From an uncultured Gammaproteobacteria bacterium (lineage in GTDB: Bacteria; Pseudomonadota; Gammaproteobacteria; UBA6002): 64,000 nt of DNA. Where the stretch lies: assembly GCA_963817645.1 (NCBI GenBank), contig CAWFQC010000024.1, positions 102,256 through 166,255 on the forward strand, read 5' to 3'. Shown in pieces: positions 57,901 through 60,900 of this stretch. Positions within the stretch are counted from its first letter, which is position 1. The number at the start of each line of letters is the position of its first letter. Made by a program: the position numbers.

Positions 57901-60900
57901 AATAGTGAGGGTATAGTCGACAATCAGCGCTGCCCCTGAAACTAGGCCAGCGTAAGGATGCAGCAACTGCGTTGCAACTTTATATCCTCCTCCACCATTT
58001 GGAAATAGTTCAATAACTTGGTTATAACTCAAGCCAAGTATAAAAACGGTGATAGCTGTTGCAATGGCAATATATAGAATTAAATGTTGGTACTTCCCTA
58101 AAGCCAGATAAGCTTCTTCTGGCCCATAGCAGGAAGAAGATAAACCATCAGCACCTAGGCCTATCCAAGCAAAGAAAGCAACTAACGCAATATGTCGAAA
58201 GATTTGCTTATCAAATGGATTAAGTTCTCTTCCTATGAGAATTTTCCGTAGCCATTGTAAAAACCGCAAGGCAACTCCTTAATCATCCTAATTTTTAAGA
58301 AAATATTCTTTGGCTTGCAAAATATCTATTTTTATTTGATCTATTAAATCATCCACTGAATCGAATTTTACTTCATCGCGCAGTTTGAATAAAAACTGGA
58401 TGATAACATTCTTCCCATAAATATTCTGGTTAAAATCCAACAAATGCACTTCCAAGAGCATCCTGGTTTTGCCGCAGACAGTTGGTCTCGTACCAATGTT
58501 TGCAACTCCTGAGATTGGTCGATCAAGTATCCCCATCATTTTAACTACAAACACGCCAGCTAGAGGCACTCTCCTTCGATGAACATCAAGGTTTGCTGTT
58601 GGGAAACCAAAAATTCTACCACGCTTAGCTCCGTGCACCACTTTCCCATGCATTTCAAAGGGTCGGCCTAATAGCTTTGGAATTAATTCTAAGTCACCTG
58701 TTTCCAACAATTTTCTGATACGAGTGCTGCTTACCCTTTCCCCTAGGATATCTAATGTTGGCATACAATCAGCTTGAAATTGAAACATTTTCCCCATTTT
58801 CTGCAATAAGGCGCAATCCCCTGAGCGTAGATAGCCAAAACGAAAATCATCACCTACCAATACATATGAAGCCGCCAACTTATTGACCAATAGCTCTGTT
58901 ACAAAATTTTCAGGTTTTTGCATTGCAATTTGGTGGTTAAAGCGAAGGCAGAGAACGTAATCTATGCCCTGCTGCCTAAAAGCAGCTATTTTTTCTCTTA
59001 AGCGCATTAACCGGGAGGTATTATTATGAGGCGAAAAAAATTCATTAGGTTGCGGTTCGAAAATAATAGCCATTGTCGGACGATTAATTTCGCGGGCTTT
59101 TTCTTGTAGTTTTTCCAGCAATTTGCGATGACCTAAATGCAATCCATCGAAATTGCCAATAGTAACAACTCCCCCTCGATGCTTTTGCTTTATATTATAA
59201 TCACCTCGAATCACTTGCATTCGACTTACTTCTTAACGATTTTATTACTCGAACCACCTTCCTGATGAACCTTAAACCGTTGCCTGAATGAAATCAAGGA
59301 CAATGGGGAACTTTTCAATGTGAGAAGTCAAATCAAGAAAAACAAGAAAAAAGTTGACAAACTTACAGGCAAACGGCATATTCCGTGTTTATTGTTTAAT
59401 ACTATATTTTGGAGTTTGATAACAGTGGCGAATACAGCACAAGCAAAAAAAAGGGCACGACAAGCAGAGAAACATCGCCTGCACAACTCTAGTCTGCGCT
59501 CAAGAATGCGCACTTCCCTTAAAAAAGTAATCAAGGCAATTGAGGGAGGCAATAAGGAAGAAGCTCAAAGTGCCTATATTCAGGCAGTGCCATATATCGA
59601 TGGGATGGTCAATAAAAAGCTAATTCACAAAAATAGGGCAGCACGCCATAAAAGCCGATTGACTGCTCACATTAAAAATTTAGATTAAAAATCTGCTGGA
59701 TTTCTTTCAGAAAATTTTGGCAAAAAACTAGGGCCTGTCGTCAATTAGCTTCCACTACGTCGTCCCACTGCCATTAAGTTAAGGGCATTTCCTCTTCGCC
59801 GTCGTCCCGCGACTCCCGCTACGTCGTCCCGCGACTTGTTCGCGGGATCCAGGATAGGGGCACTTCCCTAGATTCCGTGATCAAACCATCACCGGACGAT
59901 AGATTGCTTAACTTAATAGCAGTGGGACGAAGACCCAGAGCTGAAGTCTGATCTGATTCACCTTCAAAGAAAAAAATCAGCCTTCTTCATAAGATTGGCG
60001 CTGGATTCCTCGCATGAAAGGTTTGAGCATTCTACAAGCACCATGCGGCGAGGAACGACGGCGAGGAGGAGGAAATGCCCTTAAACTTAATGGCAGTGAG
60101 ACTTAGTGGGAGCTAATTGACGACAGACCCTAGTAGGATTCATAGCGCAAGTCTTGTAATAGATTCCCGCTTGATAGTGATGGATTCTTGGAAAATTTAA
60201 GATATCGATTTATTGGCTATTCCGGAATTCCTGTAATATTTTAAAAAAATCCCCCTTAATCCCCCTTTTTCAAAGGAGGAAACTCTTGTCAACCACGGGA
60301 ATTTCGAAAGAGCCGATTTATTCTCTTCAAGCAATAGGGAGGGCACTTACACGCCGTGTAAGTGCCCTGGCGGTCGTAATTAATTTCAGCAAGGTCGTTT
60401 CAATGGTCCCTCCACTTCTTCCTGTGAAACTACTCCTTGTCTTTACAGAAGAGAGAGATACTTAATAAAGAGAGGCAATCTAGCTGAGAATACACTTATC
60501 TCTTGAACCATCATCGATAGCATTATCCTGTTCTTCTATAGCCTTGCCCTGTTTTTCTCTAGCATTATCCTGTTCTTCGCTAGCATTATCCTGTTCTTCG
60601 CTAGTACTATCCTGTTCTTCGCTAGTACTATCCTGTTCTTCACCAGTATAGCTAAGGGGTCGACCTCGGCAAACTTCAAGTACCTTATCTTCAATGTGGA
60701 TTCTAGTTTTAAATACAACCCGTAGCGTTTTCAAATATTCATAATGTTCTATACTTAGAATTTTATCAGCTACATTTGGCAAGAAACTATAATCAAGGCG
60801 AGTAGAAAGAAGAGTTATTGTATCTAATACACGCTCTAAATATTTTAATTTCTCGTTATAGGTCGGATTTTTTTCTCGACTTTTTAAATCTGATATAATT

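What the first reader, a model, noticed from the sequence alone, without database searches (positions are those of the whole stretch)
59735..60135. Repeat family A: modular nested-palindrome elements with terminal inverted repeats, five loci in 64 kb
Copies or clusters are at 2866-3070, 29960-30600, 47966-48070, 50290-50470 and 59735-60135. They are built from recurring modules: the cccgcgacttgttcgcggg hairpin flanked by gtcgtc/gacgac, ctgccattaagttaagggcatttcctc, tgatcacggaatctagggaagtgc, and the terminus agctaattgacgacaggccctag. The 59735-60135 copy is bounded by perfect inverted termini, so it is MITE-like.

Copies sit at gene 3' ends and intergenic junctions. They supply the stop codon of the FGase gene and overwrite the yafQ C-terminus. 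I cannot match them to a named element from memory, so they may be undescribed.
Basis: seen in the sequence. Interest (0 to 1): 0.65.

Follow-up and report, generated by a model that had tools for sequence, protein, structure and literature searches.

The report
Nested MITEs from two IS families
The five repeat clusters are not one new element: they are small, transposase-less transposons (MITEs) of two ordinary kinds, one IS4-type and one IS5/IS427-type, inserted into each other in an uncultured gammaproteobacterium. This is a real but ordinary kind of feature.

Summary
All four quoted modules recur at the five loci, and shuffled sequence gives none.

"Family A" is a mosaic of at least two unrelated MITE families.

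(1) The CACTGCCATTAAGTTAAG ends are the terminal inverted repeats of the IS4 subgroup of the IS4 family.
- Full-length ISs fetched from other organisms carry the same ends, a DDE transposase and 10-11 bp target duplications.
- Two window copies have perfect 11-bp duplications.
- A paralogous empty site shows one clean 263-bp insertion.
- The same termini define the published "hupL MITE" of Ca. Thiomargarita nelsonii.

(2) The outer terminus GGGCCTGTCGTCAATTAGCT is identical to the inverted repeat of a 919-bp IS5-family element. That element has two ORFs, an A7G slippery site and a TA duplication. All window ends are TA-flanked.

The two families are nested in both directions. A chimera carrying a fragment of the IS5-type element was later amplified by IS4-type transposition.

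No transposase of any family lies in the window, and IS200/IS605 is not supported. The GC-rich hairpin shared by both families remains unexplained.

Verdict: new members of a known kind, low to moderate interest.

The parts
59729..60132 (.). Locus 5 as a whole: a 400-bp composite bounded by inverted IS5/IS427-type arms, each flanked by TA, with IS4-type MITEs inside.
   Evidence: As single-stranded DNA it folds back at -109 kcal/mol, z = -12.8.
59731..59765 (+). Left IS5/IS427-type inverted-repeat arm (GGGCCTGTCGTCAATTAGCT...), preceded by TA at 59729-59730.
   Evidence: 20/20 identical to the inverted repeat of the IS5-family elements in L011-L017.
59766..59924 (+). 159-bp IS4-type MITE. IRL-type end at 59766-59783, IRR-type end at 59907-59924. 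Inside it are a truncated IS5-type mini-element with hairpin H (59823-59852) and its TA (59869-59870).
   Evidence: It is the 137-bp copy plus 22 nt lying between direct repeats TCGCGGGACGAC (read).
59925..60056 (-). Interior of the long IS4-type MITE, 97% identical to 30342-30472.
   Evidence: I1.
60057..60098 (-). IRL arm of the long IS4-type MITE. It holds the unoccupied target CCTCGCCGTCG, the empty site for the 263-bp insertion seen in locus 2.
   Evidence: Alignment A3.
60099..60130 (-). Right IS5/IS427-type arm (GGGTCTGTCGTCAATTAGCT...), followed by TA at 60131-60132.
30026..30570 (+). Long IS4-type MITE, 545 bp including nested copies. Both ends are CACTGCCATTAAGTTAAGGGC. It sits in an IS5-type mini-element; the flanks GGACGACGTAG and CGACGTAGCGG share an 8-bp direct repeat.
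30068..30330 (+). 263-bp nested IS4-type unit: an IRR-type end, then a complete 154-bp MITE at 30177-30330. It has a perfect 11-bp target duplication CCTCGCCGTCG at 30057-30067 and 30331-30341.
   Evidence: A clean 274-nt gap against locus 5 in alignment A3.
29992..30025 (-). Hairpin H (G-C variant) plus GGACGACGTAG: the interior of the IS5-type mini-element that the long MITE split.
30571..30602 (-). IS5/IS427-type arm with TA at 30603-30604. It supplies the last five codons (GPVVN) and the stop codon of the FGase ORF (30585-31316, minus strand).
   Evidence: FGase Pfam match.
2921..3057 (+). 137-bp IS4-type MITE with a perfect 11-bp duplication CCTCGCCCTAT (2910-2920 and 3058-3068). It is inserted in a further ~95-nt repeat 'D' (2861-2920 plus 3069-3105) that begins at the stop codon of the M23 peptidase gene.
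   Evidence: An uninterrupted D paralogue lies inside locus 2 (within 30380-30560). RNA fold -62 kcal/mol, z = -9.1.
47950..48082 (+). Degenerate IS4-type MITE with two inverted H hairpins, nested inside a different 248-bp element 'F' (47899-48146) that has 49-nt inverted repeats.
   Evidence: (I16).
50328..50381 (+). IRR-type half of an IS4-type MITE. It is preceded by a fragment of another IS4-type end (50296-50313, minus strand) and a 14-nt piece of an IS5-type arm. Together these replace the C-terminus of YafQ.
50384..50457 (-). 74-bp IS5/IS427-type mini-element: a full 20-nt inverted repeat at 50438-50457, hairpin H, and a degenerate short end GGGAAGTGCC. TA lies on both sides (50382-50383 and 50458-50459). 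It is inserted in the IS4-type MITE.
   Evidence: There is an 83-bp counterpart in another MAG at L003:3854-3936.

Best explanation
The five loci are pile-ups of non-autonomous DNA transposons (MITEs) from two unrelated DDE insertion-sequence families, inserted into each other.

Family B has the termini CACTGC[CT]ATTAAGTTAAG. Its two end types are ...AAGG(G/A)... on the IRL side and ...AAGCAAT... on the IRR side. These are internal-deletion derivatives of an IS of the IS4 subgroup of the IS4 family. An IS4-type transposase encoded elsewhere binds the two ends, excises the element and inserts it across an 11-bp staggered cut, which leaves an 11-bp duplication.

Family A has the terminus GGGCCTGTCGTCAATTAGCT next to TA. 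It derives from a roughly 0.9-kb IS5-family element of the IS427 type, which inserts at TA and duplicates it.

The inferred history is as follows.
- A 74-bp A mini-element landed at a TA inside a B MITE.
- The resulting chimera was then amplified by the IS4-type enzyme.
- B elements in turn landed in A arms and in each other.
- Short direct repeats mediated deletions, such as the 22 nt separating the 159-bp and 137-bp forms.

The recurring "modules" are these junctions. Side effects on genes are a rewritten FGase C-terminus and a YafQ toxin that has lost its C-terminal motif.

Shown here: the identities of the ends, the duplications, the empty site and the nesting. Inferred: trans-mobilisation by transposases in the same genome, and the order of events.
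For: B ends match IS4-subgroup ends.
- The RepeatModeler family-325 consensus of T. nelsonii carries these termini around a DDE_Tnp_1 ORF.
- Six fetched full-length IS loci from this transposase clade all end in CA[AC]TGCCATTAA[GAT][TC]TAAG. Four of these loci carry 11-bp duplications: L005 CCCACCGGAAC, L006 AACCGGCGGTT, L009 AGGTGAAACCT and L010 ACGGTCTCCGT.
- The IS in L010 (NCBI record CP157743.1; its transposase P0039 is named to Methylomarinum sp. Ch1-1) and a 1570-bp IS in L030 have termini identical to the window's.
- The transposases hit NF033592, IS4 family.
- E. coli IS4 has the same architecture: IRL TAATGCCGATCAGTTAAGGAT, IRR TAATGCCAGTCAGTTAAGCAA, a 12-bp duplication, and InsG E = 2e-15 to P0039.
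- Published IS4-subgroup features are ends -AATR--------WTW and direct repeats of 10-13 bp (PMC2266710).

Window copies behave as transposed units.
- Perfect 11-bp duplications flank 2921-3057 and 30068-30330.
- A paralogous empty site gives a clean 274-nt gap, which is 263 bp plus 11 bp.
- An uninterrupted paralogue exists for the D target.

A ends match IS5-family ends.
- The 20-mer is found 7 times in metagenomes, always at the end of an IS5-family element.
- A complete copy lies at L014:1579-2497. It is 919 bp with 17-bp inverted repeats, TA on both sides, DUF4096 and DDE ORFs, an A7G slippery run and NF033580 matches.
- This fits the published IS427-group features of 832-865 bp, 2-bp direct repeats and a frameshift (PMC3281130).
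- All four window ends and both L003 ends are TA-flanked.

Other support.
- Nesting map.
- Short-read contigs of the same organism end inside these repeats, as expected for multi-copy DNA.
- Two syntenic relatives lack both families at the orthologous sites.
Against: - No transposase of either family lies in the 64 kb (tblastn; Pfam on about 50 ORFs). The rest of the genome could not be searched, so a resident partner and the genome-wide copy number are unproven.
- Only two B copies have perfect 11-bp duplications. One has an 8-bp repeat. The 159-bp copy in locus 5 has flanks related in inverted, not direct, orientation, which needs later recombination to explain.
- A 2-bp TA is too short to prove a duplication for family A.
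- The second end of the window's 74-bp A mini-element is a poor inverted repeat (GGGAAGTGCC versus GGGCCTGTCG).
- Hairpin H occurs inside both families and alone in a relative. Its origin is not explained by this model.
Confidence: 0.85

Rival explanations
1. One reading: one previously undescribed modular MITE family with its own terminal inverted repeats (AGCTAATTGACGACAGGCCCTAG), of which the other modules are internal parts.
For: Locus 5 is bounded by these inverted termini, and the modules co-occur in all five loci.
Against: - The CACTGCC... module is itself a pair of transposon ends with its own 11-bp duplications and an empty site.
- It occurs without the outer terminus at loci 1 and 3.
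- It belongs to a different IS family from the outer terminus.
Confidence: 0.04
2. These are REP/BIME-like palindromic units, or IS200/IS605-derived palindrome elements, mobilised as single strands by a Y1 (HUH) transposase. Hairpin H would be the recognised structure.
For: - H is a stable 7-8 bp GC stem.
- One A-U to G-C compensatory pair is seen across copies.
- H occurs in other genomes, including alone.
- It is often found as inverted pairs, as in BIMEs.
Against: - The units that demonstrably moved have terminal inverted repeats and 11-bp duplications, which Y1 transposition does not produce.
- The GTAG tetranucleotide lies 3' of the palindrome (CTAC at the 5' end), not in the REP arrangement.
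- No Y1_Tnp or TnpB gene is in the window.
- The covariation is a single pair and is not beyond the shuffles on the pair-count measures.
Confidence: 0.06
3. These are in-situ wreckage: the ends are remnants of full-length ISs that decayed where they sit. They were never mobile as short elements.
For: Some pieces are clearly fragments, such as the isolated end at 50296-50313, the half element at 30068-30176, and locus 2 lacking a left A arm.
Against: - Several copies share the same short internal sequence at 95-97% identity in different loci.
- The 137-bp and 263-bp units have perfect duplications directly at their ends.
- So they transposed as short units.
Confidence: 0.05

Closest known systems
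hupL MITE family of Candidatus Thiomargarita nelsonii (Flood et al. 2016, PMC4853749)
   Same: - Termini CAATGCCATTAAGTTAAG / CTTAACTTAATGGCATTG match the window's CACTGCCATTAAGTTAAG at 17 of 18 positions.
- It has a 10-11 bp direct repeat (ATCCAAACAGT).
- It is about 0.2 kb, non-coding and high-copy, and lies both between and within genes.
   Different: - The internal sequence is unrelated; only the 15-17 nt ends align.
- The host is different: the window's IleRS is at most 74% identical to anything else (apart from a fragment of its own sequence), and no Thiomargarita appears among the named hits.
- The window copies are chimeric with an IS5-type element.
- The authors found no parent IS and suggested a PD-(D/E)XK origin. 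Here the parent is an IS4-family IS, which is present in their own family-325 consensus.
IS4 of E. coli and the IS4 subgroup of the IS4 family (De Palmenaer et al. 2008, PMC2266710)
   Same: - End signature -AATR--------WTW.
- IRL ...AGTTAAGGAT and IRR ...AGTTAAGCAA, as in the two end types of the window MITEs.
- Duplications of 10-13 bp.
- A single-ORF DDE transposase in the autonomous relatives.
   Different: - The window elements are 137-545 bp with no ORF.
- Transposases of the related full-length ISs are only about 25% identical to InsG.
IS5 family, IS427-type insertion sequences (e.g. IS1248 and ISPpa2 of Paracoccus, PMC3281130)
   Same: - The 20-nt inverted repeat is identical to that of a 919-bp IS.
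- That IS has two overlapping ORFs, an A7G slippery site and a TA duplication.
- The window ends are TA-flanked.
   Different: - The window elements are 74-400 bp without ORFs.
- The matching full-length ISs come from ~60% GC metagenome contigs, not from this 38% GC host.
- The subgroup name is inferred from structure; no ISfinder comparison was possible.
Neisseria Correia elements and enterobacterial BIMEs/REPs (recalled from memory)
   Same: They are short, TA-flanked (Correia) or hairpin-rich mosaic (BIME) intergenic repeats that alter gene ends and transcripts.
   Different: - Correia elements have no known IS parent.
- REPs and BIMEs lack terminal inverted repeats and duplications, and depend on Y1 RAYT enzymes.
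- Here the parents are identifiable DDE ISs.

Membership tests
MITE derived from the IS4 subgroup of the IS4 family | Terminal inverted repeats that match the ends of autonomous ISs of the family | tested here: met
   The window ends CACTGC[CT]ATTAAGTTAAG are identical to the ends of the ISs in L010 and L030, and 17/18 to the T. nelsonii-type ISs. The IRL and IRR subtypes are also shared, including with E. coli IS4.
MITE derived from the IS4 subgroup of the IS4 family | Target-site duplication of the length made by the parent (10-13 bp) | tested here: met
   Perfect 11-bp duplications flank 2921-3057 and 30068-30330. The parents make 10-12 bp. Other copies have an 8-bp repeat or no direct repeat.
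MITE derived from the IS4 subgroup of the IS4 family | Evidence of insertion: an empty site | tested here: met
   A paralogous copy in locus 5 lacks the 263-bp unit and has one copy of CCTCGCCGTCG (alignment A3). An uninterrupted D paralogue exists for the 137-bp copy.
MITE derived from the IS4 subgroup of the IS4 family | Short and without a transposase gene | tested here: met
   The units are 137-545 bp. There is no tblastn match to the clade's transposase anywhere in the window.
MITE derived from the IS4 subgroup of the IS4 family | A cognate autonomous IS in the same genome | not testable with these tools
   Only 64 kb of the genome is available and it holds none. The long contig that carries these genes was not returned.
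MITE derived from an IS5-family (IS427-type) IS | Terminal repeat matching the IS inverted repeat | tested here: met
   GGGCCTGTCGTCAATTAGCT is 20/20 identical to the ends of the IS5-family elements in L011-L017.
MITE derived from an IS5-family (IS427-type) IS | Two ends in inverted orientation | tested here: met
   Locus 5 has inverted arms, 22/23 in the quoted terminus. L003 has GGGCCTGTCG versus GGGCCTCTGG. The 74-bp window mini-element has only a weak second end.
MITE derived from an IS5-family (IS427-type) IS | TA target duplication | tested here: inconclusive
   Every end is TA-flanked: 4/4 in the window, 2/2 in L003, and the IS in L014. But 2 bp cannot be told apart from a target preference, and no empty site was found.
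REP/BIME elements mobilised by RAYT | GTAG head 5' of an imperfect palindrome, no inverted-repeat ends or duplications, and an associated Y1 transposase | tested here: not met
   H reads CTAC-stem-loop-stem. The mobile units have inverted-repeat ends and duplications. No Y1_Tnp ORF is in the window. The rest of the genome was not tested.
IS200/IS605-derived palindrome elements | Subterminal hairpins, no terminal inverted repeats, no duplication, and TnpA/TnpB partners | tested here: not met
   Inverted-repeat ends and 11-bp duplications are present. No TnpA or TnpB domain is found in the window's ORFs.

The most novel reading that the evidence does not exclude
The GC-rich hairpin H (GTCGTCCCGCG[A/G]CTTGT[T/C]CGCGGGATCCAG) may not be mere passenger sequence. 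It could be a third, structure-constrained element, REP-like or a protein or RNA binding site. As such it might act as a shared landing pad or recombination hub for two unrelated DDE transposon families, yielding chimeric MITEs that either transposase can move.

Observations in its favour:
- It sits inside both families.
- It occurs in an IS5-type mini-element of a different MAG.
- It occurs alone in a relative.
- It shows one compensatory A-U to G-C change.
Probability: 0.15. Interest if true: 0.45.

Novelty: new member of a known kind. Interest (0 to 1): 0.25.

Why it matters
- It turns a puzzling "modular palindrome family" into two annotatable MITE families with named parent IS families. 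That helps annotate this repeat-rich, uncultured gammaproteobacterial genome and explains why short-read assemblies of it break at these sites.
- It documents reciprocal nesting, and the later amplification of a chimeric MITE.
- It shows two concrete gene effects: a rewritten FGase C-terminus, and a YafQ toxin that has lost its conserved C-terminal motif.
- It suggests a parent for the published Thiomargarita hupL MITE. The parent would be an IS4-family IS that is already present in that paper's own repeat consensus, rather than a PD-(D/E)XK element.
- None of this changes how transposons are understood.

Tried and rejected
- Rfam at gathering thresholds and a tRNA scan of the whole window found nothing.
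- BLASTN of the 406-bp unit against 72,556 plasmids found no match.
- A scan of 185,579 species genomes for the 23-nt outer terminus gave a single hit, in another gammaproteobacterial MAG (L003). The window's own genome is therefore not among those representatives, and no copy count was possible.
- A viral-contig scan for the outer terminus found none.
- Looking for the source genome through exact-protein look-ups returned only short Logan contigs that stop at the repeats.
- A Beggiatoaceae origin was suspected from the Thiomargarita link. It is not supported. The best IleRS hits are unnamed Gammaproteobacteria MAGs at 72-74%, and Thiodiazotropha and Chromatiales at about 59%. The TAACTGA heptamer typical of marine Beggiatoaceae is not enriched, with 7 copies.
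- The PD-(D/E)XK origin proposed for the hupL MITE was considered, along with the window's AAA-ATPase/PDDEXK_9 gene (43005-44885) as a partner. This was rejected because the ends match IS4-family ISs.
- The terminator and promoter scan of locus 5 gave nothing above shuffles.
- I could not derive a single stepwise history for locus 5. The flanks of its 159-bp copy are inverted rather than direct, so recombination between copies has to be invoked.
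Full report
**Observation.** The sequence is as described.
- The outer terminus AGCTAATTGACGACAGRCCCTAG occurs four times, at 30583+, 50438+, 59728- and 60111+.
- CACTGCCATTAAGTTAAG occurs 14 times at up to 3 mismatches, 13 of them in the five loci.
- The hairpin GTCGTCCCGCGACTTGTTCGCGGGATCCAG occurs seven times.
- The two other quoted modules occur four times each.
- Dinucleotide-preserving shuffles give essentially none.
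- Blocks of 100-150 nt are shared between loci at 95-97% identity.

The flagged element runs from 59729 to 60132. Its inverted termini are near-perfect: 22/23 in the quoted terminus, and by my reading about 30 of 33 positions over the arms.

**Two kinds of ends.** Mapping every end shows that "family A" mixes two sorts of transposon termini.
- B ends read CACTGC[CT]ATTAAGTTAAG. They come in two subtypes, ...AAGG(G/A)... and ...AAGCAAT....
- A ends read GGGCCTGTCGTCAATTAGCT and are always preceded by (C)TA.

**B ends belong to the IS4 subgroup of the IS4 family.**
- A literature search led to Flood et al. 2016 (PMC4853749). Their "hupL MITE" of Ca. Thiomargarita nelsonii ends in CAATGCCATTAAGTTAAG / CTTAACTTAATGGCATTG and is flanked by ATCCAAACAGT.
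- Their supplementary RepeatModeler family-325 consensus has the same termini around a frameshifted ORF. I reconstructed this ORF. It matches the DDE_Tnp_1 domain.
- A search with it found more than 1,100 homologues.
- I fetched six full-length IS loci of this clade (L005-L010). All end in CA[AC]TGCCATTAA[GAT][TC]TAAG. Four of the loci carry 11-bp duplications: CCCACCGGAAC, AACCGGCGGTT, AGGTGAAACCT and ACGGTCTCCGT.
- The IS in L010 (record CP157743.1; its transposase P0039 is named to Methylomarinum sp. Ch1-1) and a 1570-bp IS in L030 have termini identical to the window's. A 135-bp MITE with the same ends sits in L024.
- The transposases hit NCBIfam NF033592, IS4 family.
- E. coli IS4 itself has IRL TAATGCCGATCAGTTAAGGAT, IRR TAATGCCAGTCAGTTAAGCAA and a 12-bp duplication. 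InsG matches P0039 at E = 2e-15.
- This is the same IRL/IRR distinction as the two end types in the window. It fits the published IS4-subgroup signature of ends -AATR--------WTW and direct repeats of 10-13 bp (PMC2266710).

**A ends belong to an IS5-family, IS427-type element.**
- The 20-mer was found seven times in metagenome contigs. Each time it sat at the very end of an element whose first ORF begins MRRYGLRDDQW....
- One complete copy lies at L014:1579-2497. It is 919 bp with 17-bp inverted repeats and TA on both sides. It has a DUF4096 orfA and a DDE orfB overlapping at an A7G run, and both ORFs hit NF033580, IS5 family.
- These are the published hallmarks of the IS427 group: 832-865 bp, 2-bp direct repeats and a programmed frameshift (PMC3281130).
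- The only hit in 185,579 species genomes is an 83-bp TA-flanked mini-element in another gammaproteobacterial MAG, at L003:3854-3936.

**Evidence that the short units moved.**
- The 137-bp B unit at 2921-3057 has a perfect 11-bp duplication, CCTCGCCCTAT. It interrupts a further ~95-nt repeat, D, which has an uninterrupted paralogue inside locus 2 (within 30380-30560).
- The 263-bp B unit at 30068-30330 has a perfect duplication, CCTCGCCGTCG. Aligning locus 2 with the reverse complement of locus 5 gives one clean 274-nt gap, equal to 263 + 11 bp. Locus 5 therefore preserves the empty site.
- The long B element at 30026-30570 lies in an A mini-element. Its flanks share an 8-bp direct repeat, and would share 11 bp if 3 nt were lost.

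**Reciprocal nesting.**
- In four B copies the IRR half ends ...GGAATC, followed by TA and then the short end of an A mini-element (GGGAAGTGCC...hairpin H...).
- In locus 4 that mini-element is complete: 74 bp at 50384-50457 with TA on both sides.
- In the 159-bp and 137-bp forms the mini-element is truncated on the far side. Those two forms differ by 22 nt lying between direct repeats TCGCGGGACGAC (read).
- The 137-bp chimera has its own perfect 11-bp duplication. It was therefore mobilised by the IS4-type machinery after it acquired the A fragment.
- Conversely, locus 5 is an A-bounded, TA-flanked 400-bp unit that contains B elements.
- Identical junctions recur: CTACGTCGTCC|CACTG twice and CGACGTAGTGG|CACTG twice. 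This shows that composites were copied as units.
- Not everything resolves. The flanks of the 159-bp copy in locus 5 are related in inverted orientation, which points to recombination between copies.

**Hairpin H.**
- It lies inside A mini-elements, including the one in L003, and inside the arms of symmetric B MITEs (30177-30330 and 47950-48082). It also occurs alone upstream of ileS in a relative.
- It exists in A-U and G-C versions of one stem pair and never in a mixed version. That is one compensatory change, suggestive but not beyond the shuffles on the pair-count measures.
- Its origin is unexplained.

**Context and effects.**
- The window is 38% GC. It carries ordinary housekeeping genes, many toxin-antitoxin pairs and no transposase of any family.
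- Apart from a fragment of its own sequence, its IleRS is at most 74% identical to anything in the protein collection. The named relatives are Gammaproteobacteria MAGs.
- Two syntenic relatives lack both MITE families at the orthologous sites. The expansion is therefore lineage-specific.
- Short-read contigs of the same organism stop inside the repeats.
- The A arm supplies the last five codons and the stop codon of the FGase ORF.
- The cluster at 50296-50459 replaces the conserved YafQ C-terminus.
- The units fold into strong hairpins, with z = -9 to -13, as expected for elements with inverted-repeat ends. No terminator-like site was found.

**Mechanism.** The following rests on established knowledge of the two families.
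- DDE transposases supplied in trans bind the inverted repeats, cut the element out and insert it at staggered cuts.
- The stagger is about one helical turn for the IS4 family, which gives the 11-bp duplication. It is 2 bp at TA for IS427-type elements.
- Nesting arises because the elements themselves offer targets.
- Short direct repeats then drive small deletions.
- Trans-mobilisation in this genome is an inference, because no partner gene could be looked for outside the 64 kb.

**Comparison and novelty.**
- The B units pass the tests for IS4-subgroup MITEs, and they share termini with the published hupL MITE. Their interiors are unrelated to it.
- The A units pass the inverted-repeat tests for IS5/IS427-type MITEs. 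The TA duplication is consistent but too short to be proof.
- The REP/RAYT and IS200/IS605 models fail on terminal repeats and duplications.
- This is a new set of members of a known kind.
- A minor by-product concerns the hupL MITE. Flood et al. found no parent for it and suggested a PD-(D/E)XK origin. It most likely derives from the IS4-family IS in their own family-325 consensus.

**Scores.** Interest is 0.25. The most novel reading still open is that H is an independent, structure-constrained hub shared by both families, at a probability of about 0.15.

Noticed in passing
window 15708-15789, 20036-20144, 23148-23215, 37979-38083, 48139-48254, 53294-53413, 60205-60320: A second abundant ~100-nt palindromic repeat family: GCTCTTCCGGAATTCCTGTGG...AAAAAATCCCCCTTAATCCCCC...CCACGGGAATTCCGGAAGAGC. 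One copy has perfect 39-nt arms. Copies lie next to loci 3 and 5. It looks like another MITE (D1, D4, D9, I9, I11, I18).
   Followed up: no
window 22860-22914, 37637-37814, 48727-48917: A third repeat family, built on CCCCTCTCCCGCGCAAAAAA... and TTTGCCCTCACCCCAACCCTCTCCCGCTGG..., with 55-73 nt inverted arms (D13, D15, I6, I8, I10, I20, I22).
   Followed up: no
window 47899-48146 and 48933-48990: A 248-bp element 'F' with 49-nt inverted repeats (TTAAATAACGTCAGTTCGACGAATCTAAGCAGAG...). It hosts the degenerate IS4-type MITE of locus 3. A partial second copy lies 1 kb away (I16, D16).
   Followed up: partly
window 48641-48712 and 49638-49709: A 72-nt direct repeat at 97% identity brackets the ~1-kb segment carrying a HigB-like/HTH toxin-antitoxin pair (49004-49626). 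The first copy overlaps the 3' end of the pilin gene. This could be the footprint of a cassette insertion (D14).
   Followed up: no
window 15943-19856; 23653-24519; 37061-37528; 12606-12770 vs 15923-16087: Several genes look broken.
- An ORF with ATP-cone domains only is followed by many short same-strand ORFs, then a ribonucleotide reductase small chain lacking its first ~40 profile positions.
- A Cpn60 fragment covers profile positions 117-379 of 490.
- A SpoU methylase is cut at position 59 of 142.
- A 165-nt direct repeat (95%) duplicates the start of the ATP-cone ORF.
These may be real pseudogenes or long-read indel errors.
   Followed up: no
window 60480-62264 (minus strand), repeats at 60511-60657: A 594-aa ORF with no Pfam match carries five or more tandem 21-nt (7-aa) repeats near its C-terminal end (D2).
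   Followed up: no
window 51704-51748: A hexamer array (AGAATG)n lies between the alanine dehydrogenase-like gene and lytB (D18).
   Followed up: no
window 6811-7442, 11880-12299, 20385-21203, 41692-42421, 49004-49626, 49742-50433: The window has an unusually high density of toxin-antitoxin-type genes: Gp49/HTH, PIN, AbiEi, HigB/HTH, HigB-like/HTH and RelB/YafQ. It also has an AAA-ATPase/PDDEXK_9 gene at 43005-44885.
   Followed up: no
L014:1560-1578: The complete IS5-family element in this metagenome contig has inserted at the TA of a partial copy of its own inverted repeat (TAGGGCTTGTCGTCAATTA|GGGCC...). The element's ends are therefore themselves targets, as in the nesting seen in the window.
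   Followed up: partly
PMC4853749, supplementary RepeatModeler family-325 and family-176: The published T. nelsonii consensus family-325 is a full IS4-family IS with the same termini as the paper's hupL MITE. Family-176 contains several such ends. The paper reports no parent IS for that MITE.
   Followed up: yes
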